The notes under the pieces: model-generated
Seen by the model: the letters and a program-made list of their open reading frames with translations, nothing else
The model's database searches: none
What the model was told of the DNA's origin: nothing
DNA from: a virus
Taxonomy: Duplodnaviria; Heunggongvirae; Uroviricota; Caudoviricetes
Virus record (IMG/VR): IMGVR_UViG_2923302340_000003
Reading direction: 5' to 3' (one strand)
DNA: 11,115 nt
Program-made: the position numbers and the translations under genes
Shown here: in pieces, positions 1 through 11,115 of the stretch
Layout: every line of letters begins with the position of its first letter
Position numbering within the stretch: position 1 is the first letter of the stretch

Positions 1-762
1 ATGTGTTGTAAAATCAGTCGAAGCCTAACAAGTGTGAATGACCTTTTAACCATGACGCAAGTGTTCAATGTTTACTGTGATGAGTCCTGCCATTTAGAAA
101 ATGATGGTCAAAAAGCAATGGTGCTCGGGGCTGTTTGGTGTCCTCTCAATAAGAGGTTTGGTATTGCTAATCGAATACGAGAGATAAAGCTCAAACATGG
201 CTTGGACCCACGTTTTGAAGTCAAATGGACTAAGGTTGGGGCTTCTAAAATTGAGTTTTATAAAGATTTGGTGGATTACTTCTTTGATGATGATGATCTT
301 CATTTCCGGGGATTGGTTATTCCTGACAAAACTCAGCTAAAGCATGATGATTTCGATCAAAGTCATGATGACTGGTACTATAAAATGTATTTTGTCATGT
401 TGAAAACTATTTTTGAGCCAGGAAGTCAATATAGAGTCTTTATTGATATAAAAGATACTCTTGGTCATGAGAAAATACTCAAGTTACATGATGTATTATG
501 TAACAATGCATATGATTTCTCTAGGAAAACAATTTCTAATATTAAGAGAATTAATTCTCATGAAGCTGAGCAATTGCAACTTGCTGATTTATTAATAGGT
601 GCCCTTAGTTATATGCATAGAGGTTTGAATGAAAGTAAGCCAAAACTTTTATTAATTAACAGGATAAGAGAAAGGAGCGGCTATAATCTAACCCAAAATA
701 CTTTGCTTCGAGAGTTAAAGTTTAATCTAATGATCTGGCAATCTAATGGGGGATGTCGATGA
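1..762 (+). CDS. DUF3800-like protein, AT-rich accessory gene. ORF is open to the window edge; the likely true start is ATG at 52 (MTQVFNVYCDES...), otherwise the gene is 5'-partial
   Basis: Long ORF in an AT-rich block. A hydrophobic-Y-C-D-E-S motif sits a few residues after the Met at 52, matching my recollection of the conserved N-terminal motif of DUF3800 proteins (not verified by search). Stop TGA at 760-762. No clear Shine-Dalgarno before 52. Confidence 0.6.
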   Translation: MCCKISRSLTSVNDLLTMTQVFNVYCDESCHLENDGQKAMVLGAVWCPLNKRFGIANRIREIKLKHGLDPRFEVKWTKVGASKIEFYKDLVDYFFDDDDLHFRGLVIPDKTQLKHDDFDQSHDDWYYKMYFVMLKTIFEPGSQYRVFIDIKDTLGHEKILKLHDVLCNNAYDFSRKTISNIKRINSHEAEQLQLADLLIGALSYMHRGLNESKPKLLLINRIRERSGYNLTQNTLLRELKFNLMIWQSNGGCR

Positions 763-1244
763 GTCCGGTTTGGCTACCCAAGCAAATTTTATTAGAACAC
801 TATCAAGGTGAGTGGGAGGCCTACTTTGATAGTGTTTATCAAGCATTCCACCGCGATTTCGTTTTATCTAAACCAGTTTTTCGTGGCGTTCGATTAGGAT
901 TGAAACGTCATCCAGAATATGAAGGTAAATCAGCCACATTCTGGCATATGATTAGCACTGGAAATGTAGAAAGTGAGAGAGTGCCGGATATTCGGCGCTG
1001 CGAAAGAATTAGTTGGCCTAAGCCTGTTATAGATAATAGTACCGATACCTGTTTGAAAGTCTGGGCTGAGCCCAAAGGTAAAAATAGACGTATCCACATT
1101 TGGTTTGAGGATGAGGGATATCTGGTGGTTTTAGATGATAGAGGCGATTTTATGCTTCCATGGACAGCGTTTTATATTGAACATAACCATCAACGAAAGA
1201 AATACAATAAGAGATGGGAAAGACACAATCATAACGGTATTTGA
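753..1244 (+). CDS. Hypothetical protein (163 aa), translationally coupled partner of the DUF3800-like gene
   Basis: ATG at 753 overlaps the upstream stop (760-762) by 10 nt. A GGGGG run at 747-751 serves as Shine-Dalgarno. No recognisable catalytic motif. Confidence 0.6.
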   Translation: MSMSPVWLPKQILLEHYQGEWEAYFDSVYQAFHRDFVLSKPVFRGVRLGLKRHPEYEGKSATFWHMISTGNVESERVPDIRRCERISWPKPVIDNSTDTCLKVWAEPKGKNRRIHIWFEDEGYLVVLDDRGDFMLPWTAFYIEHNHQRKKYNKRWERHNHNGI

Positions 1245-1790: not shown

Positions 1791-1819
1791 GATTTACACC
1801 TTAGGAAATCTTAGGGGGC

Positions 1820-2090
1820 TGGTTGACACTTTCCGGCTTAAGACCTTAATAAATCTTAATATCGCAGGTTGACACACTTGACACTTTTTCGGGAAAAACC
1901 TTAACAAAACTTAACCATCCCTGGCATTTCTAAGCATGGCAACTTGACACTTTTCGCGATTTTTTCGGCTTTTTGACGAGGTAAATCTGGCGCAAAGCCA
2001 GTAACGGCGGGGTTTACAGCGAGGTTGACACTTTTTCGCGTTCAGAGTGTAAAGTGTCAACCTGGCAAGCTGCTCAACTTGACACTTTTT
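1820..2090. repeat. Iteron array 2: seven copies of TTGACACTTTT(T)CG-like repeats (six direct, one inverted), interspersed with CTTAA/CTTAG short repeats
   Basis: TTGACAC at 1823, 1869, 1878, 1944, 2024 and 2079. Inverted copy GTGTCAA at 2054-2060. Most are followed by a T4-5 run and CG. The array sits between the HTH gene end (2095) and the small ORF start (1790). Confidence 0.6.
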
Positions 2091-2094
2091 GATG

Positions 2095-2632
2095 TCATTG
2101 ATGGTCTGATTTTTCCCATTCAGCCAAGGCGTTTAGTCCTGCCTCACTCCATGTGTCCTGTTCATCGGGACAATCGCTGGCAACATAGCATAGTTCACAA
2201 CGCAACATACGAATTGCCAGCCAGGCATTACCCCGCAAATTGTATTGTTCAAAGTAATGCTGCCCGTCGCAATCCTCAAGGCAGATAGCACCACCATCAA
2301 GAAATTGCACTTCCCAGCCTAATTCCCCGGCTGCATTCAGCACACGCTGCCGTATGTCATCGTCCGTTACTGGTGCAGGGATTTTACCGTCTCTGGCCTT
2401 AACTGCTTTCCAGAACTCGCCCCACGTCATTTCCAGCGTTCTTTCTGGCCACATTTCAGAAACTGCGTCTTTTCCCTGTGCTGGTGGGCTGTTCCGCTGC
2501 TCTGTCGCTTCCACATCGATTTTTTTACCGGACATAACCACTTCGCCTTTCTCGATCCAGTCGTAAACTGTCTGGCGGCTTACGCCTTTGTGTTTGGCGT
2601 ATTCAGCTTTACTCATCAACATGTGGCTCACC
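2095..2632 (-). CDS. DNA-binding protein with N-terminal HTH (Nu1/excisionase-like, SKAEYAKHKGVSRQTVYDWIEKGE) and C-terminal Cys cluster (CX3C...CX2C)
   Basis: ORF on the minus strand. GAGGTGA Shine-Dalgarno 5 nt before ATG at 2632. The track's 2661 start is probably an upstream extension. HTH assignment is from motif resemblance only. Confidence 0.6.
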
Positions 2633-4094: not shown

Positions 4095-4175
4095 CGTTTT
4101 TACTGATTGCTACGTTGCCCAACGGCACTGACACAACATTCTGTTTTCATTTTTAACATTCCTGATTTTTTAATT

Positions 4176-4560
4176 CCTCACCTGCTGCACAGTGAGAATT
4201 TATGAAGTTAATAACAATATGATTTTAAATGTATTTTTAAGTACTCACTTTTTAATCCTTATATATACGCAAAAGTGAGGTAAATAGTTAAGTTTTAGTT
4301 AATATCTTGCATGGTGTGTTTTTTAACCTACCTGTTATTTTATTACCTCATTTCTATTAACTCACCATTCCTCACTTTTGTTCCTCACTTTTTATTATTC
4401 TTGTTCTGCTCCTCAGTCGTTTTCTTTATTGTTGTAATCTGTTGTTTTGCAATGTGTTTTTAACTCCTCACTTTTTGACCTATATACAGGTGAGAAAGTG
4501 AGGAAAACAGGGATGATTTTTAAATATTCCCTGCCCCCTCACTTTTACGCCTCACTTTTT
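4176..4560. repeat. Iteron array 1 (probable replication origin): CCTCACTTTT repeats in an AT-rich region immediately downstream of the replication gene
   Basis: Direct copies at 4244, 4370, 4383, 4466, 4537 and 4550. Inverted copies AAAGTGAGG at 4272-4280 and 4495-4503. Partial copies at 4176, 4346 and 4361. The last copy abuts the rep stop codon. Confidence 0.65.
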
Positions 4561-5971
4561 ACAGTGGGCGCACATCATCACCGTCAATAGCGATTACGCC
4601 GTCACCTTCCAGCTTGTACAGCCAGCGCCGGAAGTTTTTCATCTCATACCCCAGCTTTTTCATGTCATCGCGCAACAACGGAATAGTGCATTTATCTCCG
4701 CGTTGCGTGCGTGAACGGATACAGCCCCATAGTGCGGCGTGATTCTCCGTCTTGTTCCCGGCTTCCTCGATGCGCTCCAGTTCAACTGGCGGACGGGGCT
4801 TATCCTCCAGCACCAACGACGTGATTAACTCCCCGCCTTCATCCTTGAAAAGCTCAACCTCGCGCAAATCGCAAGCCATTTCTTTCAGTTCCTCCGCATC
4901 CTTCATCTTGGTACATGCGATAACCAGGGCTTCACTGCCTGCACCTTCACGGCGTATCCGGTACTCTGCATCCAGTGCTGCACGAAACGCACTGGAACCG
5001 CGCGCACCCTTTGTTTCATCCTTGCCGGAATGGTGAATTACCAGCACTGTAGCGCCTGTACGCCGTTTCAGTTCGTCACATCCATGGACAAATGCCCCCA
5101 TATCCCGCGCATCATTTTCATCGCTGCCACCAAAGCAACGCGCCAGAGTATCCAGAATAATCATGCGTACAGGTTTACCCGTTTCCTGCTCAACCTGTCG
5201 GGCAGCAATAACCATTTCATCAACATCACTCGGTGCGGCCGGAAAAATTGGACGATTTACCAGGTACAGATTTTTCACCTGCTCACTGTTCACCAGTTCC
5301 CATGCCTTGATACGACGAGGAACACCGATCCCCCCCTCACCAACGACATACATCACCGCACCATGTACAACCCTGCGACCTCCCCACGGGATACCGGTAG
5401 CAACATGACACGCCCACGAACACGCAAGGAACGACTTATAAGAACCGCTCGCACCGTATGTGCTACATAGCGAATTAGCCGGAATCACACCCTTAACCAC
5501 ATAGCTAAGCTGTGAATCGTATCCTTCCGATCCAATGCTCATTGGTAGCGTGGTTTTTCGCTGGCTGTATTGCTCGTCAGTAAGCATTTCTTCGCGCTCT
5601 GCCTGTTCGCGGATCCGTTGCAGGTAATCGCGCCAGTTCTCCGGCTCCCGGTCGGTGATGCCTTTGTATAATTTCGCCTCCTGTACGCCAGCCAGTGCCA
5701 GTTTTTCAGCGATAGCATTGATCTGGATTGGTTCGATCTCCCCCGCGAGATAGACACGCGCAAAGCGGCGTTCATCGTCGACAATGCGGATATTCGCCAG
5801 GTCTGCCAGTTGCTTTGGCCCCAGGTAAACAGGTGGTACGTTATCGCCGTGTTTTCGTCCTTCGCTTTCAATCCAGTGTTGAGCATGGGCGTAAGCATCC
5901 GTCCCGGCAAAAATGATTACCTCAGTGAATTTATCCTTCGGCTGATATTTCAAACTCGGTGCGTTTTTCAC
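4559..5971 (-). CDS. Replication protein: N-terminal TOPRIM-like region fused to a RecA-fold (RepA/DnaB-like) ATPase; putative primase/helicase
   Basis: Walker A GASGSYKS and Walker B-like MIILDTL are present. N-terminal acidic motifs (FAGTD, IVDDE) suggest TOPRIM. The start is directly adjacent to the upstream stop. Iterons lie immediately downstream. Confidence 0.8.
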   Translation of the reverse strand: MKNAPSLKYQPKDKFTEVIIFAGTDAYAHAQHWIESEGRKHGDNVPPVYLGPKQLADLANIRIVDDERRFARVYLAGEIEPIQINAIAEKLALAGVQEAKLYKGITDREPENWRDYLQRIREQAEREEMLTDEQYSQRKTTLPMSIGSEGYDSQLSYVVKGVIPANSLCSTYGASGSYKSFLACSWACHVATGIPWGGRRVVHGAVMYVVGEGGIGVPRRIKAWELVNSEQVKNLYLVNRPIFPAAPSDVDEMVIAARQVEQETGKPVRMIILDTLARCFGGSDENDARDMGAFVHGCDELKRRTGATVLVIHHSGKDETKGARGSSAFRAALDAEYRIRREGAGSEALVIACTKMKDAEELKEMACDLREVELFKDEGGELITSLVLEDKPRPPVELERIEEAGNKTENHAALWGCIRSRTQRGDKCTIPLLRDDMKKLGYEMKNFRRWLYKLEGDGVIAIDGDDVRPL

Positions 5972-6463: not shown

Positions 6464-6821
6464 GATTCACCCCCTGAATAACCTGATAACCGCAACTGGT
6501 CAGCAATTCGATAAATTCCGGCAGTGTGCCGAAACAGCAATCATCACGCATACGTTCGCGGGATACCTCAACGCCGTTTTCGTAGTGACTCACCATGCGT
6601 CCAGTAAAATGCAGATCATCATCGTGATGGCACGTTGACGGCTTAATCAGTCGCGCACGTTCTGCCAGCTCCAGCAATGCTTCAACACTTCCGGCAATTG
6701 CACCATCCGGCAGGCGATAATTACTTACCACGCGTCCATTCTCCACATTGACCAGTAGCTGCCCGGTAAATTTCTCATCAAACTGAATGCTGTTAAGGTC
6801 AGAAATTGACAGGTTATGCAT
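6456..6821 (-). CDS. Hypothetical protein (121 aa) with two tandem copies of the same module (FTGQLLVNVENGRVVSNYRL and FTGRMVSHYENGVEVSRER)
   Basis: Strong AGGAGGTG Shine-Dalgarno 5 nt upstream of ATG at 6821. 8-nt overlaps with both neighbouring genes. Confidence 0.6.
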   Translation of the reverse strand: MHNLSISDLNSIQFDEKFTGQLLVNVENGRVVSNYRLPDGAIAGSVEALLELAERARLIKPSTCHHDDDLHFTGRMVSHYENGVEVSRERMRDDCCFGTLPEFIELLTSCGYQVIQGVNHG

Positions 6822-7179
6822 GGTGCACCTCCTGGCGAATACGGGCGGCGAATACCATCACACAGCCATCAGGAGATTGCTGGCGTGCTTCCTGTTCGCT
6901 GGTGGCCTCGATGTGAATTACGCGCGGTTGTGCCGTGCTCAGGGCGATAAAACGCCAGATAAAATTGTTCTCGCATTTCTGAATAAACAGCGTGTTTTCT
7001 TCGCGCCCTTTCCATGTTGCCGAGATATAGCCCATGTCATTGAGCATCTCGCAGGCATCCACCAGCGTATCAGCGGCTACGTGTACAGTGTTTTTACCGT
7101 CAGCCATGCAATCACGGTGCACCGCCAGGAAGGTGTATATAAATTTAGGGTGAGTTTGGGTATGCTGTGTTCCAGCCAT
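6814..7179 (-). CDS. Hypothetical protein (121 aa, MAGTQHTQTHPKFIYTF...), first gene of the replication operon
   Basis: GGAG Shine-Dalgarno 9-12 nt upstream of ATG at 7179. The track's 335-aa ORF (to 7821) is an artefactual upstream extension that crosses the divergent promoter and the opposite-strand gene. Confidence 0.55.
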   Translation of the reverse strand: MAGTQHTQTHPKFIYTFLAVHRDCMADGKNTVHVAADTLVDACEMLNDMGYISATWKGREENTLFIQKCENNFIWRFIALSTAQPRVIHIEATSEQEARQQSPDGCVMVFAARIRQEVHHA

Positions 7180-7253
7180 AATCGTTACTCCAGTTAACGG
7201 TTTGGTTAGACGCCCTGCATGTGTTGCGAGCACTGCGGGGCGTCGCTCTTTTA

Positions 7254-7305
7254 GGTGTATTTCACCTTTGCTTTTTAATTTACTCACTGGTGAAATACAC
7301 TTCAA
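7254..7305. promoter_or_regulatory. Operator-like perfect 12-bp inverted repeat GTGTATTTCACC-N22-GGTGAAATACAC overlapping a candidate minus-strand sigma70 promoter
   Basis: Left arm 7254-7265, right arm 7288-7299. Candidate minus-strand promoter: -35 TTGAAG (reverse complement of 7299-7304) and -10 TAAATT (reverse complement of 7276-7281) with 17-bp spacing. TATACT at 7331-7336 may be the -10 for the plus-strand gene. Confidence 0.5.
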
Positions 7306-7366
7306 GCCTTTTTTTATCATTTTTTTTGCGTATACTGACATACACCAATTTTTAGGAGATCCAGAA

Positions 7367-7546
7367 ATGGCAACTGGTGCAAAGAACGCAAAATCACAAA
7401 TGACAACTGTCAGAATCCCACATGAAGTAATGGATGATATTGAGCAACTTAAAGAACCTGGCGAAAGTACCGCTGGTTTTTTAGTTACTGCCGCAAAAGG
7501 CGAGATCAAACGCCGCCAGCGTCGCAAGGCCAAAGAGCAGGAGTAG
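7367..7546 (+). CDS. Small protein (59 aa, MATGAKNAKSQMTTVRIPHEVMDDIEQLKEPGE...) divergent from the replication operon; candidate regulator
   Basis: AGGAG Shine-Dalgarno 7-11 nt upstream of ATG at 7367. Basic C-terminal tail. The track ORF 7202..7546 has an implausible N-terminal extension. Confidence 0.5.
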   Translation: MATGAKNAKSQMTTVRIPHEVMDDIEQLKEPGESTAGFLVTAAKGEIKRRQRRKAKEQE

Positions 7547-7767
7547 TTGATCAGCACCGGACGACCAGAAAAAATTGCATCAGTCGCGCCACCAGCAGTA
7601 TTTTTTGCTTTCCGGACAGCGTGGCCAACGGCATTTTGCAGCAAAATATTCTGCATTTCTGGCGTGCTGTAGAAACGGTGATCAGCGCCTTCACATTGAA
7701 CGAACTTGTCGCTAAAATTCACCCACATAGCAAACATCGCGGTGCTGTAGGTAATTCGTTCACAAAG

Positions 7768-7798
7768 GCGCTCCGGCAACGGGGCGCTTTTTCTTTTT
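7768..7798 (+). terminator. Strong rho-independent terminator (plus strand), possibly weakly bidirectional
   Basis: GCGCTCCG (7768-7775) pairs with CGGGGCGC (7780-7787) around a GCAA tetraloop. This is an 8-bp stem with one G-U pair, followed by TTTTTCTTTTT (7788-7798). Confidence 0.7.
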
Positions 7799-7813
7799 GT
7801 AACGGTCAGAGCG

Positions 7814-8614
7814 TTACACATGGCTGTTTTCCTCCATGCGACGGGCTAACCAACGCTGCGAAAGACGAATTAATTCAGCTTTCCGCTGGTGGTAGTCCTG
7901 GCCTAACTCAATCAGCGTGATATTGCTCTGCTCAAGGTAAGAAAGGTGCTCAAGCTGCAACGTGCTCATGTGGTCGCGTGGTTCGCCTGTGATGCCGTTC
8001 GCCTGCGCCCACTGTTTTGCAGTCATGCCACCCAGCACGATACGCGCCAGCATATTGGCTTCCGTGGTGTAGTGGTGCTGGAACGTGTTTTTACCCAGTT
8101 CAGCCCGGTACGCCTCCAGCGCGGCGCACATCGGCTTAAAGTAACTGGCAACGGTGATACGGGCTTTCAGTTCCCGGCGTAACGCTGCGGAACGAACAGG
8201 CGCTACCTTGTGTAGCTCCTCCTCGCATTTGATGAAGTACTGACGAACGGCGCGGCCCTGTTCGGTGCGTTCGACCATCGCCAGTTCTTTCGCCATGTTC
8301 ACGGTAATGATGTACTCAAGAGCTGTTTGCTGGCGAGATTTTGCGCTCACCGGATCGGGTCGGCTCAAATATTCAACAACCTCATAATCCACGCCTTCCG
8401 TGAAGCCGTATTCTTCAATGCGCCCCTTGATCCACGAACGGAAAACGCGACCTACACCTAACGCCTTATGCAACGCTCTGGCGCTAACAATATTGGTTTC
8501 ACACCCGCCAATAATGCCGGAAATAACCGGGATAATTTCGCCGAAATTTTGCAGATTCTGGTTTTCAGGCCGAACGAAGCCCTGCCCCTGTACGGGCGTT
8601 TTTCGCAGTTTCAT
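7814..8614 (-). CDS. Phage antirepressor-like protein (AntA-type N-terminal domain)
   Basis: The N-terminal region SARALHKALGVGRVFRSWIKGRIEEYGFTEGVDYEV resembles the AntA antirepressor domain pattern, recalled from memory. 266-aa ORF. Confidence 0.65.
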   Translation of the reverse strand: MKLRKTPVQGQGFVRPENQNLQNFGEIIPVISGIIGGCETNIVSARALHKALGVGRVFRSWIKGRIEEYGFTEGVDYEVVEYLSRPDPVSAKSRQQTALEYIITVNMAKELAMVERTEQGRAVRQYFIKCEEELHKVAPVRSAALRRELKARITVASYFKPMCAALEAYRAELGKNTFQHHYTTEANMLARIVLGGMTAKQWAQANGITGEPRDHMSTLQLEHLSYLEQSNITLIELGQDYHQRKAELIRLSQRWLARRMEENSHV

Positions 8615-8691
8615 AAAAACTCCTGCTATCGAATTAAGTTACTTTTTATTTGCTGGTGGATAGCTGGGGAAAAAGCCCCGTTGCTGTTTAA

Positions 8692-8919
8692 TCAGGCTGA
8701 TGTGTTTCGGCGTTCTTCCAGCCAGCGATTAATCTCTACCGCATCGAATGCAGTGCTTTTCTCACCCAGTTTGATGGGCTTAGGCATCTTCCCGCTACGC
8801 ACCCAACGATCGAGCGTTGATAAGCTGGTACCCAGCAATTCAGCCAGGCGATAGCGGCGGATATAGCCAGTTGCAGGGATTGCGGTTTGAAGTATTGGTT
8901 GGTTTTTCATATGCCCCAT
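8692..8919 (-). CDS. alpA: AlpA-family phage transcriptional regulator (about 72-75 aa)
   Basis: Motif RYRLAELLGTSLSTLDRWVRSGKMPKPIKLGEKSTAFDAVEINRWL matches the AlpA/Vis-type pattern. The track ORF start at 9003 is an extension. Likely start is ATG at 8919 or 8910. Confidence 0.75.
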   Translation of the reverse strand: MGHMKNQPILQTAIPATGYIRRYRLAELLGTSLSTLDRWVRSGKMPKPIKLGEKSTAFDAVEINRWLEERRNTSA

Positions 8920-9022
8920 TACCTTTGTTGTTGGTTTGTGATTCGTAATAGGGGCATTAAATAACAAATGAAATGATGTGTGTGTGAGTTTTAGAAAAAA
9001 CACTGTGACTTTTCTTATTTCA

Positions 9023-9805
9023 CTATCTAAAACGCTCTCGCCAGCTTTTCCAAGTGTTCTTATCTGGTTGTGGGATTACAATGCCTTTTTGAGCACCTAT
9101 TTGTGCAATTTTTTTATTTAACTTGTTAGGCGGCAAAGATATTATCTCATTGTCTGTTAATCCGGCAATTCTTAATAATCCATATATCATTTTAAATTGA
9201 TGTATTGTTAATCTTGGTAACTTGTGATTTTCTTTTTTTATAGTGTTGTTTATGGAGTAAATTGGAAATCCATTTGTTATTGATTTATAAAGGTTGTCAA
9301 TGTGCTCTCTGGTTATTAATAATGAATCAGGTGTAATCTTAATGTTGCCGCTTGTTTTTGCATGGCATGAAAAAATAAATGTGGGATTCGCAGTGCGACG
9401 TGAAAGCGGTATGGATGTATTCATAGAGATAGTTTTGTTTCTTACTATAGTCTCTTGAATATCAAAAACTCCAGAAACCTTTGCCTCAAAAATAACACCA
9501 TTTTCTTTTATTTCATCACTATATTCATGAATAATTATGCCAAGAGAGGAAATTTCTTTTTTGATGAGAAAAGAAATAAAATCAATATAGTCTTCATCCT
9601 TTGGCCATGTAAAATCACGATAACCAAAATACCCCTCACAGTAAGCATTTTTTATTTTTGTGGCAAAATTAATTCTGTTAATATCCTGCCAATGCCATAA
9701 ATCATCTATTTCACATTCTAAAATTTGAGCTGCTCTATCTAAAGAGCAGAATTCTAATGGAGGTAATTGTTTTTTTTGCCATATTGTTTCATTAATATTT
9801 GTCAT
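9023..9805 (-). CDS. AT-rich orphan hypothetical protein (260 aa) inserted between int and alpA; candidate cargo gene
   Basis: Uninterrupted ORF in a block that is clearly more AT-rich than the flanking int and alpA genes. Asn/Ile/Lys-rich. No recognisable motif. Confidence 0.65.
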   Translation of the reverse strand: MTNINETIWQKKQLPPLEFCSLDRAAQILECEIDDLWHWQDINRINFATKIKNAYCEGYFGYRDFTWPKDEDYIDFISFLIKKEISSLGIIIHEYSDEIKENGVIFEAKVSGVFDIQETIVRNKTISMNTSIPLSRRTANPTFIFSCHAKTSGNIKITPDSLLITREHIDNLYKSITNGFPIYSINNTIKKENHKLPRLTIHQFKMIYGLLRIAGLTDNEIISLPPNKLNKKIAQIGAQKGIVIPQPDKNTWKSWRERFR

Positions 9806-9861
9806 GATTGCACTACCGTTATGAAAAAATATATTCGTTAATGAATTAGCCTTAATGTCTA

Positions 9862-11115
9862 TTATTTATTAGATTGCGTGATGTCAGAACATATCATGTT
9901 TTCTAAATTCACCAGCAAATCAGTCCACTGTGCCAGCGCCGCTTTGCGCTCATCAAAATATTGATGGCGGTTATAAATGCCCTCTACGCCTTTTATGCGG
10001 TGGTTAAGGCATCGTTCAGCAACGATCGGGTCAACTCCCAATGCTGCTAAATGTGTTCGTGCTGTTCGCCGGAAGTCGTGAATTGTAAAGTTGGGGACGT
10101 TCGGCATTTCTGCTCTGACTTTTGCCAATGCAACAGGAAGGGTGCTTTCCTGGATGTGAGGGATCATTCTGTGCTGCATTTTTCTGGCAGGTAATACCCA
10201 TGCGCTATTGCATGAAAATGTGTGCAATTCTCGCAACCATTCTATGGTCGCTGGTGGTAATGGTATGTCGATAGCATCGCCATTTTTAGTTCGTTGTTCT
10301 GGTAGATGCCAAATCGCGCCATCTAAGTCGAATTCATCCCACCTGGCGGCGCATAATTCCATTTTTCTGACACACAATGCTAAGAGCAACTTAAAGGTTA
10401 ATTCGTTCTGGCGGCTGAATCCTTTGGCTTTACGCATGGCCTGAAAAAATTGGATTAATTCGTCACGGTTCAGCCAGCGATCACGAGATAATTCTTTCCC
10501 ACCAGCATCTGATACTTCAAAAGCTGAGCAGGGGTTAACCTCCAAAGCAAGGCGTTTAATACCGTAGTCAAATATTCGACGTGTCCACCGAAGAACGTCA
10601 GTAGCAATTGTTGGAGCGCCTCTATCAACAATGCTTTTAAGCATGGCATCAATATGGCGTGGTTTTACATCTTCAACCTTCATGTGGCCTATGGCAGGAT
10701 TTATGTCTTTATCAATGCGCCTGCGGAGAATATCTGGGTGTTTCCATCGGGGAAGTATTTGCCGTGCAAAGTATTCGGCGGCAAGTTCAGAAACATGCAG
10801 CGCGTTTTTTTCAGCTTCTATTTTTGCCAGTGCTTCGGCTTTACGCTGCTGTTTTTCTGCGGCTACGTCATATCCCAAAGCAACTCGTGCGGAAAGTTCT
10901 TTTGCCAGTTCCCTGGCTTTTGATAACGATAATTCAGAATATGAACCAATAAGCATGGCACGAGATTTTCCCGCCAGTTTATATCGAAACCGCCATGTCG
11001 GGGATCTATCCACCTCTCTATACCGGAGATATAGCCCACCACCATCAGCACGACCTTCGAAATGTTCTCCGGCTTTTATCCATGCGCGGATCTGCATATC
11101 TGTGAGTTTTGGCAT
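9862..11115 (-). CDS. int: P4-type tyrosine integrase (417 aa), apparently full length
   Basis: N-terminus MPKLTDMQIRAW...GGGLYLRY is typical of P4-family integrases. C-terminal catalytic motifs HDFRRTARTHL and EGIYNRHQY (Tyr nucleophile) are present. Confidence 0.9.
   Translation of the reverse strand: MPKLTDMQIRAWIKAGEHFEGRADGGGLYLRYREVDRSPTWRFRYKLAGKSRAMLIGSYSELSLSKARELAKELSARVALGYDVAAEKQQRKAEALAKIEAEKNALHVSELAAEYFARQILPRWKHPDILRRRIDKDINPAIGHMKVEDVKPRHIDAMLKSIVDRGAPTIATDVLRWTRRIFDYGIKRLALEVNPCSAFEVSDAGGKELSRDRWLNRDELIQFFQAMRKAKGFSRQNELTFKLLLALCVRKMELCAARWDEFDLDGAIWHLPEQRTKNGDAIDIPLPPATIEWLRELHTFSCNSAWVLPARKMQHRMIPHIQESTLPVALAKVRAEMPNVPNFTIHDFRRTARTHLAALGVDPIVAERCLNHRIKGVEGIYNRHQYFDERKAALAQWTDLLVNLENMICSDITQSNK

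What the first reader, a model, noticed from the sequence alone, without database searches (positions are those of the whole stretch)
9023..9805. Orphan AT-rich 260-aa gene wedged between integrase and alpA
A single gene of strongly atypical composition sits between two conserved backbone genes, int and alpA. That is the signature of a variable cargo slot. The protein has no recognisable catalytic motif and would be a candidate single-gene defence or abortive-infection factor, or a phage-interference factor.
Basis: partly seen in the sequence, partly recalled or inferred. Interest (0 to 1): 0.7.

Follow-up and report, generated by a model that had tools for sequence, protein, structure and literature searches.

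The report
Satellite gene between integrase and alpA
The AT-rich 260-codon gene is real, but it is not an orphan: it belongs to a large uncharacterised protein family that always sits just upstream of alpA in phage-satellite islands, so it looks more like part of the island's own excision/induction module than like free defence cargo.

Summary
There is a 783-nt ORF at 9023-9805 on the minus strand. Its GC is 0.31, against 0.46 for int and 0.51 for alpA, and it lies between those two genes.

- The window is an 11-kb PICI-like phage satellite of E. coli, inserted next to yicC.
- The gene is not an orphan. A profile search finds 391 clusters at 50% identity. None has a Pfam, NCBIfam, PHROG or PADLOC match.
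- All 10 distant members I checked lie immediately upstream of an alpA-like gene.
- In 30 related islands from different species the slot always holds exactly one same-strand gene of 216-348 aa. These genes fall into only four unrelated families.
- Where extra DNA has been inserted, it lies between int and this gene, not between this gene and alpA. Known defence systems such as Gabija occupy the stretch right after int in a sister lineage.
- In the four E. coli islands I examined, int-orf260-alpA-antA stays linked while the replication module and the far-end cargo change.

The closest precedent is the iolg/icg gene of Vibrio PICMI satellites. It occupies the same position, comes in 13 unrelated families, and is needed for excision.

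My best reading (about 45%) is a satellite life-cycle cofactor that works with Int and AlpA. Defence cargo and an alpA gatekeeper remain open at about 20% each.

The parts
9023..9805 (-). orf260: 260-aa member of 'family A', a slot gene lying next to int and upstream of alpA (RefSeq WP_001529476.1, annotated as hypothetical protein)
9665..9772 (-). Residues 12-47: the most conserved part of the protein, a winged-helix-like domain (consensus PLEYCxxxRAAxLLxCExxDxxHWxxIGAI). It is acidic, with pI 4.4.
9266..9664 (-). Residues 48-180: a central alpha/beta domain with weak ferredoxin-like resemblance. It is rich in indels and hypervariable across the family. Only G112 and F/W114 are conserved.
9026..9205 (-). 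Residues 201-260: a basic (pI 10.7) four-helix C-terminal domain (RxTxxQxxxIxxLL ... TxxxW). It is the likeliest nucleic-acid-binding part.
   Evidence: Weak in-register hhalign to the C-terminus of family B (P=1.6e-4).
9770..9777 (-). A8 homopolymer tract in codons 10-12. In strain ECAMP047 the gene is 1 nt shorter and RefSeq calls a start 23 nt downstream; the deletion lying in this tract and shifting the frame onto the other ATG is my inference from the sequence, not checked in that strain's DNA.
9806..9861 (-). 56-nt AT-rich spacer between the int stop and the orf260 ATG. No terminator was predicted. It lacks the Rfam int-alpA RNA motif that occupies this place in most related islands carrying family A or B.
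8911..9022 (-). 112-nt spacer between orf260 and alpA, presumably holding the alpA promoter. No consensus sigma-70 site or terminator was found.
   Evidence: The promoter role is inferred from PMC6092414 and PMC11773190.
8692..8910 (-). alpA: a 72-aa AlpA/HTH_17 regulator or excisionase-like protein
9862..11115 (-). int: a P4-type tyrosine integrase of 417 aa

Best explanation
orf260 is a component of the satellite's own integration/induction module. It is the enterobacterial counterpart of the 'int-overlapping / int-contiguous gene' (iolg/icg) of Vibrio PICMI satellites.

Proposed mechanism (inferred, not shown):
1. It is made together with Int in the integrated state. Only 56 nt separate it from int, it is on the same strand, and no terminator is predicted between them.
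2. It acts with Int and the phage-induced AlpA in the switch to excision and induction.
3. The basic C-terminal helical domain contacts nucleic acid. The conserved but acidic AlpA-like N-terminal domain and the hypervariable middle domain make protein contacts.

What is shown here is the position, the family, the fold outline and the linkage to alpA. The excision role is taken by analogy from a gene in the same position that has not been shown to be homologous.
For: **The island**
It is a PICI-like satellite with int, alpA, antA, an Icd-like gene, DUF4222, a RepA helicase with iterons, ProQ, PerC and a TerS-like gene.

**Linkage to alpA**
- The family has 391 representatives. Ten of ten distant members lie immediately upstream of an alpA-like gene. 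Int lies upstream in 6 of the 10; two more contigs begin with a cut ORF there (identified as an integrase C-terminus in one, L085), and two are too short to show it.
- The slot was filled in 30 of 31 related islands by one same-strand gene of 216-348 aa from four families.
- Seven Betaproteobacteria and other islands also have a single 219-373 aa ORF before alpA.
- In L010, L022 and L067, inserted DNA lies between int and the slot gene, which stays next to alpA.
- In 14 of 22 family A loci and 4 of 5 family B loci the gene carries the conserved Rfam int-alpA RNA as a leader. That RNA moves with the gene in L010 and L022.

**Contrast with real cargo**
- True defence cargo (Gabija, PDC-S06 and others) sits directly after int in a sister lineage and is detected by PADLOC. 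None of the slot families is detected.
- All 12 E. coli copies are at least 99.7% identical; in the four islands examined (the window's plus three) they stay with int-alpA-antA, while the replication module and far-end cargo differ.

**Translational coupling in family C**
Family C overlaps the int stop by 4 nt (ATGA/GTGA) in 8 of 12 loci, exactly like iolg.

**Precedent**
In PICMI115, deleting iolg abolishes excision, packaging and transfer. In PICMIs, 13 unrelated iolg/icg families fill this slot (PMC10803314).
Against:
- The PICMI deletion was complemented only with int plus iolg together, never with iolg alone.
- Slot families are shuffled freely relative to Int and AlpA phylogeny. The nearest-neighbour test gave 10/30 for Int and 14/30 for AlpA, against 10.3 and 10.2 expected. 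That is odd for a protein that must fit a particular Int or AlpA.
- Family A proteins are far more divergent than their neighbours: median 22% identity, against 78% for Int and 41% for AlpA.
- Some PICIs do without any such gene. In EcCICFT073 alpA appears to follow int directly, which I infer from the paper calling the next gene ORF3, and in L021 alpA follows int directly.
- The low GC matches the defence-candidate genes at the other end of the island.
- The conserved N-terminal 'wHTH' is acidic, so direct DNA binding by it is doubtful.
Confidence: 0.45

Rival explanations
1. Gatekeeper of alpA. The protein keeps the satellite quiescent or senses the helper phage. It would work by Stl-like logic with a different architecture: a conserved DNA or partner-binding scaffold plus a hypervariable sensor domain that sets helper specificity.
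For: - The gene always lies 50-180 nt upstream of alpA.
- The middle domain is hypervariable between conserved ends, and divergence is extreme.
- Families are exchanged independently of Int and AlpA, as expected for a specificity module.
- In a sister lineage the gene before alpA is an XRE/Cro-CI HTH protein.
- How helper phages switch on alpA in Gram-negative PICIs is reported as unknown, and no repressor is known (PMC6092414; PMC10803314 discussion).
Against: - The PICMI iolg deletion loses excision rather than becoming constitutive.
- EcCICFT073 is helper-inducible without such a gene.
- The gene is co-directional with alpA, not divergent as stl is.
- No operator-like repeat was found in the 112-nt spacer.
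- The N-terminal domain is acidic.
Confidence: 0.2
2. Accessory cargo: a single-gene anti-phage, abortive-infection or helper-interference factor carried in the 5' accessory region of the satellite.
For: - It has the lowest GC in the window, like the PDC-M04 candidate defence pair at the far end.
- Unrelated families alternate in the slot with no link to Int or AlpA phylogeny.
- Sequence turnover is very fast.
- PICIs are reported to carry immune systems at their 5' or 3' ends (PMC11364771).
- The gene is truncated in ABU 83972 and 1 nt shorter with a later annotated start in ECAMP047, so it is dispensable for the host.
- Some PICIs lack it.
Against: - There is no match to any PADLOC model for families A-D, whereas cargo after the same kind of int is readily recognised.
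- The slot is empty in only 1 of 31 islands, always holds one gene and has a narrow size range.
- The family was never seen away from alpA, in 10 of 10 cases. Phage records gave no match; plasmid records were not searched.
- Insertions go upstream of it, not in its place.
- In the four E. coli islands examined it is the constant part of the island.
- No effector-type domain was found.
Confidence: 0.2
3. A decaying or functionless remnant that is simply tolerated between two selected genes.
For: The copy in ABU 83972 is truncated; the ECAMP047 copy is 1 nt shorter with a later annotated start. There is no known domain.
Against: - The ORF is intact in 9 of 11 strains, although its composition is rich in potential stop codons.
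- The family is large, with a conserved architecture and a confident AF2 model (pLDDT 85).
- Synteny holds across Gamma- and Betaproteobacteria.
Confidence: 0.03

Closest known systems
iolg / icg genes of PICMI satellites of Vibrionaceae (Nat Commun 2024, PMC10803314)
   Same: - It is a single gene between int and alpA on the same strand, overlapping int by ATGA (iolg) or contiguous with it (icg).
- Many mutually unrelated families fill the position, all of unknown function.
- It is expressed with int.
- Here, family C shows the ATGA/GTGA overlap in 8 of 12 loci and orf260 is the contiguous type.
- Family A reaches Vibrio, in V. neonatus.
   Different: - Sequence homology to any of the 13 PICMI families was not tested.
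- The host elements here are larger PICI-like islands of Enterobacterales.
- The excision requirement is known only for PICMI115.
Stl/Rpr master repressors of Gram-positive PICIs (SaPIs)
   Same: They are encoded next to int, are extremely divergent between otherwise similar islands, and have a modular architecture. They couple the island to a specific helper phage (background in PMC6092414).
   Different: - stl is transcribed divergently from the operon it represses and has a clear HTH.
- orf260 is co-directional with alpA.
- It has an acidic wHTH-like domain that passes no HTH model threshold.
- There is no evidence of repression.
AlpA / Vis / Xis HTH_17 proteins (PF05930, PF12728) and MerR-type winged helices
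   Different: - It is below every Pfam threshold.
- Net charge is -2 to -4, against +4 for AlpA.
- It is followed by about 210 further residues that have no counterpart in AlpA.
5' accessory / immune regions of PICIs and the defence hotspots of P4-like satellites (PMC11364771, citing Fillol-Salom 2022; PMC9122126)
   Same: The location is just downstream of int, and composition is low in GC. In a sister lineage of the same integrase clade this region does carry Gabija, PDC-S06, a DUF1848 protein and Hp1/Hp2.
   Different: - Those hotspots hold variable numbers of genes, often recognisable systems, and can be empty.
- The alpA-adjacent slot holds exactly one unrecognised gene, and it stays in place when cargo is inserted upstream of it.
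Rfam RF02996 int-alpA RNA motif
   Same: It occupies the same int-alpA interval. In related islands it lies between the int stop and the ATG of the family A or B gene, with 13 of 21 pairs showing compensatory changes.
   Different: It is absent from this window. It is an RNA element, not the protein. Its function is unknown.
yfjH of the E. coli K-12 CP4-57 prophage
   Same: It is an uncharacterised 318-aa gene lying between intA and alpA.
   Different: It is on the opposite strand and has no similarity to families A-D.

Membership tests
iolg/icg positional class of AlpA-type satellites (PICMI paper) | A single gene between int and alpA, on the same strand as both | tested here: met
iolg/icg positional class of AlpA-type satellites (PICMI paper) | Start overlaps the int stop (iolg) or is contiguous with int (icg) | tested here: met
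   Contiguous type: there are 56 nt between the int stop and the ATG. Family C relatives overlap by 4 nt in 8 of 12 loci.
iolg/icg positional class of AlpA-type satellites (PICMI paper) | Required for helper-induced excision and transfer | not testable with these tools
   Known only for PICMI115. It needs a deletion and complementation experiment.
iolg/icg positional class of AlpA-type satellites (PICMI paper) | Sequence or fold homology to one of the 13 PICMI iolg/icg families | not tested
   The supplement gives locus tags only, and those genomes are not in the collections I could read.
Gram-negative PICI-type satellite (the host element) | int, alpA and a primase/replicase in one direction; about 10-15 kb; no capsid, tail or lysis genes; ori downstream of the replicase | tested here: met
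   The replicase here is a RepA-type helicase (AAA_25), with iterons at 4150-4561.
Gram-negative PICI-type satellite (the host element) | Induced and packaged by a helper phage | not testable with these tools
   No experiment was possible. att repeats were not found with a 12-nt seed.
AlpA/HTH_17/MerR winged-helix DNA-binding domain | Passes the Pfam model at its gathering score | tested here: not met
   There were no Pfam hits for the whole protein, for its N-terminal 60 aa, or for 145 relatives. One relative had a stray MerR_1 hit at E=0.002.
AlpA/HTH_17/MerR winged-helix DNA-binding domain | Winged-helix fold with a basic DNA-contacting surface | tested here: inconclusive
   [not shown]
Known or candidate anti-phage defence systems (PADLOC-DB v2) | HMM match to a defence protein model | tested here: not met
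   orf260 and representatives of families A-D gave 0 families. Positive controls from the same integrase clade are detected.
Defence or cargo hotspot behaviour | The slot holds varying numbers and kinds of genes, including known systems and empty states, while its flanks stay constant | tested here: not met
   30 of 31 islands are filled, always with one gene, from four families. Family-level alternation does exist.
Stl/Rpr-type PICI master repressor | Divergently transcribed from the regulated operon, with a recognisable HTH repressor domain | tested here: not met
   It is co-directional with alpA, and no HTH model matches.
Rfam RF02996 int-alpA RNA | Covariance-model match in the int-alpA interval | tested here: not met
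   There was no Rfam match in the window at E<=0.1. It matches at 53-64 bits in L004, L005, L016 and L023.

The most novel reading that the evidence does not exclude
Family A, and the unrelated families that alternate with it, are the missing specificity component of Gram-negative PICI-type satellites. On this reading they form a modular, fast-evolving protein made with Int. It either licenses Int/AlpA-dependent excision or gates alpA in response to a particular helper phage. Swapping the slot gene would then re-target the satellite to a new helper.
Probability: 0.2. Interest if true: 0.75.

Novelty: new member of a known kind. Interest (0 to 1): 0.45.

Why it matters
How Gram-negative PICI-type satellites sense their helper phage and switch from integration to excision is still open. 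The accessible literature names only Int and AlpA, and says the inducer is unknown.

This work adds three things:
- Most islands of this integrase clade carry a third, always-present but uncharacterised gene between int and alpA.
- One of its families has hundreds of divergent members that are strictly tied to alpA.
- In many islands that gene is preceded by a known but unexplained structured RNA, the Rfam int-alpA motif.

Together these give a concrete candidate to test. They also warn against counting every AT-rich gene next to an integrase as defence cargo. In this clade the real cargo site is between int and this gene, and at the far end of the island.

Tried and rejected
**Structure and fold searches**
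- AF2 with only 5 sequences gave a useless model (pLDDT 40). It was redone with 145 sequences (pLDDT 85).
- A profile search against PDB sequences found nothing.

**Relationships between the slot families**
- hhalign between families A, B, C and D was not significant over full length.
- Only weak in-register hints appeared at the termini: A versus B C-terminus P=1.6e-4, A versus B N-terminus P=0.018. I therefore do not claim one superfamily.
- K-12 yfjH, which lies between intA and alpA, is on the opposite strand and is unrelated.
- EcCIMP1_002 is described as only about a tenth the size of UvrB, so it is far smaller than family A; no sequence comparison was made.

**DNA features**
- The promoter and terminator scan and the repeat scan of 8500-10100 were not above shuffled expectation and showed no operator-like repeat.
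- Rfam found nothing in the window.
- tblastn against phage records found no match.
- att direct repeats were not found.

**Literature**
- A search for the protein accessions returned nothing.
- The Cell 2022 PICI immunity paper is not held, so the content of its 5' regions could not be checked.

**Co-variation**
- The test of slot family against Int and AlpA trees found no association. This argues against tight co-evolution.

Full report
**1. The observation**

The ORF at 9023-9805 on the minus strand starts with ATG and encodes 260 aa. Its GC is 0.310 and its GC3 is 0.241, the lowest in the window. Int is 0.458, alpA 0.511 and the window mean 0.458. At this composition an open frame of 260 codons has a chance probability of about 2e-10. 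The longest open frame in 2000 shuffles was 147 codons, against 279 observed. Full-length relatives at 36-38% identity confirm that it codes for a protein. Upstream is a P4-type tyrosine integrase at 9862-11115. Downstream is a 72-aa AlpA/HTH_17 gene at 8692-8910. All three genes are on the minus strand.

**2. What the window is**

The window is identical to E. coli CFSAN018748 (NZ_CP028192.1). It is a complete island of about 11 kb inserted between dinD and yicC. The gene order along the minus strand is:
- int, orf260, alpA, antA
- a YlcI/YnfO gene on the opposite strand
- an Icd-like gene and two small genes
- DUF4222 and a RepA-type helicase, followed by AT-rich iterons at 4150-4561
- ProQ/FinO and PerC
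- a protein with a TerS-like N-terminus, next to TTGACACTTT repeats
- at the far end, a DUF3800 gene and a partner that match the PADLOC candidate system PDC-M04

This matches the published four-zone layout of Gram-negative PICI satellites: integration, Bro, replication and late/accessory (PMC10111431).

**3. Not an orphan**

The word-indexed search found only five relatives. A profile of those, scanned with HMMER against 1.84 billion cluster representatives, found 391 proteins at E<=1e-3 and 157 at E<=1e-10. Most are 260-350 aa long.

In a 145-sequence alignment the conservation pattern is as follows:
- The N-terminal 35 residues or so are strongly conserved. C20, R24, A25, L29, C31, D35 and H38 are at least 90% conserved.
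- The middle 110 residues or so are hypervariable and full of indels. Only G112 and F/W114 are conserved there.
- The last 100 residues or so are moderately conserved.

None of the 145 members matches Pfam beyond single stray hits. The named members I looked up are all annotated as hypothetical proteins. They come from Providencia, Morganella, Klebsiella and Vibrio neonatus, plus one virome MAG; earlier hits and loci add Leclercia, Raoultella, Pluralibacter and Aeromonas.

**4. Structure**

With the deep alignment, AF2 gives pLDDT 85 and pTM 0.67. The model has four parts:
- a small beta-alpha-alpha unit at residues 12-47
- a central alpha/beta domain at 48-180
- a low-confidence linker
- a four-helix C-terminal domain at 201-259

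However, this domain is acidic. The family mean charge is -2.3, and in the window it is -4 with pI 4.4. AlpA is +4. The C-terminal domain is basic: the family mean is +2.1, and in the window it is +7 with pI 10.7. I therefore treat the C-terminus as the more likely nucleic-acid-binding part and the N-terminus as a possible protein-contact module. Both assignments are inferences.

**5. The slot across related islands**

I used int homologues from one genome per species. Thirty-one islands have an alpA homologue within 1.6 kb downstream of int. In L021, alpA follows int after only 36 nt. The other 30 each have exactly one same-strand ORF of 216-348 aa in the interval, with GC below that of int.

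By BLASTP these ORFs fall into four families:
- family A, the orf260 family: 12 loci plus the window
- family C: 12 loci
- family B: 4 loci
- family D: 2 loci

Profile-profile comparison does not join the families. There are only weak in-register hints at the termini of A and B.

Family C starts inside the int stop codon (ATGA/GTGA) in 8 of 12 loci and leaves 350-590 nt before alpA. Families A and B start about 90 nt after int and end 95-180 nt before alpA.

Islands with more divergent alpA genes, from Betaproteobacteria and other groups, show the same plan: a single 219-373 aa ORF before alpA. In one case this ORF is a DUF6387 protein.

**6. The gene belongs to the alpA side**

Ten distant family A members, chosen from the protein search and not through int, all lie immediately upstream of an alpA-like gene. 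One of them is in a Vibrio neonatus island that carries a capsid gene.

In L010, L022 and L067, IS elements or other genes are inserted between int and the slot gene, while the slot gene remains next to alpA.

In a sister lineage whose int is 71-75% identical, the DNA directly after int carries recognisable defence systems:
- Gabija GajA/GajB at E=3e-302 and 1e-252
- PDC-S06
- a DUF1848 protein
- Hp1/Hp2

In the members of that lineage where alpA is reached, two small minus-strand genes, an XRE/HTH_3 gene and then alpA follow int; the same small genes appear downstream of the defence genes in several of the others. So a true 5' cargo site exists in this integrase clade, but it lies upstream of the gene that precedes alpA. 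PADLOC detects that cargo and detects none of families A-D.

**7. Within E. coli**

orf260 occurs in 12 of 5426 complete genomes. All copies are at least 99.7% identical. In the four islands I examined the gene sits in int-orf260-alpA-antA next to yicC. The replication module differs between them (a DNA primase family protein against the RepA helicase). The far-end cargo also differs (an 'RNA-binding domain-containing protein' against the DUF3800 pair). The varying parts are therefore elsewhere in the island.

Family C is more common, in 203 of 5426 genomes. The ABU 83972 copy of orf260 is truncated to 627 nt. The ECAMP047 copy aligns 1 nt shorter and RefSeq calls a start 23 nt downstream. I infer that the deletion lies in the A8 tract at 9770-9777 and moves the frame onto a second ATG, but I did not read that strain's sequence.

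**8. Evidence pointing the other way**

Slot family is not associated with Int or AlpA relatedness. The nearest neighbour shares the slot family in 10 of 30 cases for Int and 14 of 30 for AlpA, against about 10 expected (p=0.59 and 0.14). The window and L002 share an int that is 86% identical at the protein level yet carry families A and C. DNA similarity breaks 48 nt before the int stop and resumes inside alpA.

Within family A the median pairwise identity is 22%, against 78% for Int and 41% for AlpA.

The slot is thus always filled yet freely exchanged. This fits a specificity module or analogous replacement. It also fits accessory cargo better than it fits a tightly co-evolving Int partner.

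**9. Literature**

- In EcCICFT073, alpA appears to follow int directly: the paper calls the gene after alpA ORF3, which is my basis for this. [quoted passage not shown]
- In EcCIMP1, alpA is the third gene, and the small gene before it has no known role (PMC11773190).
- PICIs are said to carry immune systems at their 5' or 3' ends (PMC11364771). The primary paper is not held.
- The closest precedent is the PICMI paper (PMC10803314). [quoted passage not shown] It is present in 25 of 35 subfamilies and falls into 13 unrelated families of unknown function. In PICMI115 it is required for excision, packaging and transfer. The authors propose an Int-IOLG-AlpA excision complex. Complementation used int and iolg together.

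**10. A known RNA next door**

In related islands the roughly 90 nt between the int stop and the family A or B start codon is a conserved structured element. Rfam identifies it as RF02996 'int-alpA RNA' at 53-64 bits, above the gathering score of 35.8. Thirteen of 21 predicted pairs show compensatory changes.

It is present in 14 of 22 family A loci, 4 of 5 family B loci and none of 14 family C or D loci. It follows the slot gene in L010 and L022. The window lacks it and has a 56-nt AT-rich spacer instead.

**11. Verdict**

It is not an orphan, and the slot is not a free cargo bay.

My best reading is that it is a satellite life-cycle component of the int-alpA module, the positional equivalent of iolg/icg, acting with Int and AlpA in excision or induction (0.45). 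Two rivals are a helper-sensing gatekeeper of alpA (0.2) and defence or interference cargo (0.2).

I class it as a new member of a known kind. Interest is moderate, because it gives a concrete and widely distributed candidate for an open question in satellite biology, but no function has been shown.

Noticed in passing
window 1-1244 (+): A DUF3800 gene and an overlapping partner match the PADLOC candidate defence pair PDC-M04A/B (E=8e-98 and 1e-73). Their GC is low (0.35 and 0.40). In other E. coli copies of the island this end carries a different gene, an 'RNA-binding domain-containing protein'. This is the island's variable cargo end.
   Followed up: partly
window 4150-4561: An AT-rich stretch with six or more CCTCACTTTT iterons and longer imperfect repeats lies just downstream of the RepA-type helicase gene. 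It is probably the satellite's replication origin.
   Followed up: partly
window 1818-2089, next to ORF 2095-2622 (-): Six copies of TTGACACTTT lie beside a 175-aa protein whose N-terminus resembles a small-terminase HTH (phrog_57, E=2e-7). This may be a packaging site with its binding protein.
   Followed up: no
L004, L005, L016, L023 and others, about 7265-7340; absent from window 9806-9861: The Rfam int-alpA RNA (RF02996) lies between the int stop and the start codon of family A and B slot genes. Thirteen of 21 pairs show compensatory changes. It stays with the slot gene when DNA is inserted after int (L010, L022). Its role is unknown, and the window's allele lacks it.
   Followed up: partly
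window 9770-9777; L092 10501-11282; L080 11001-11627: There is an A8 tract near the 5' end of orf260. The ECAMP047 copy aligns 1 nt shorter and RefSeq calls a start 23 nt downstream; that the deletion lies in this tract and moves the frame to a second ATG is my inference. The ABU 83972 copy is truncated to 627 nt.
   Followed up: partly
[not shown]
   Followed up: no
L085 811-2379: Two different family A paralogues (261 and 247 aa) sit in tandem between int and alpA.
   Followed up: partly
L030, L032, L033, L035, L038; L039-L043: In a sister lineage of the same integrase clade, Gabija, PDC-S06, a DUF1848 protein or Hp1/Hp2 lie directly after int. In L039-L043 two small minus-strand genes with signal-peptide-like N-termini, an XRE/HTH_3 gene and alpA follow int. 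This is a genuine 5' defence hotspot.
   Followed up: partly
window 6814-7821 (-): The 335-aa 'longest ORF' is an artefact of start choice. RefSeq calls a 121-aa Icd-like protein at 6814-7179, and only that C-terminal part matches PHROG families.
   Followed up: yes
L016 9806-10046: A related Buttiauxella island carries P4-type immunity RNAs (C4 at 86 bits and isrK at 76 bits). The window has no Rfam match at all.
   Followed up: no
L090 3645-4601 (E. coli K-12 CP4-57): yfjH, an uncharacterised 318-aa gene, also lies between intA and alpA. It is on the opposite strand and is unrelated to families A-D.
   Followed up: yes
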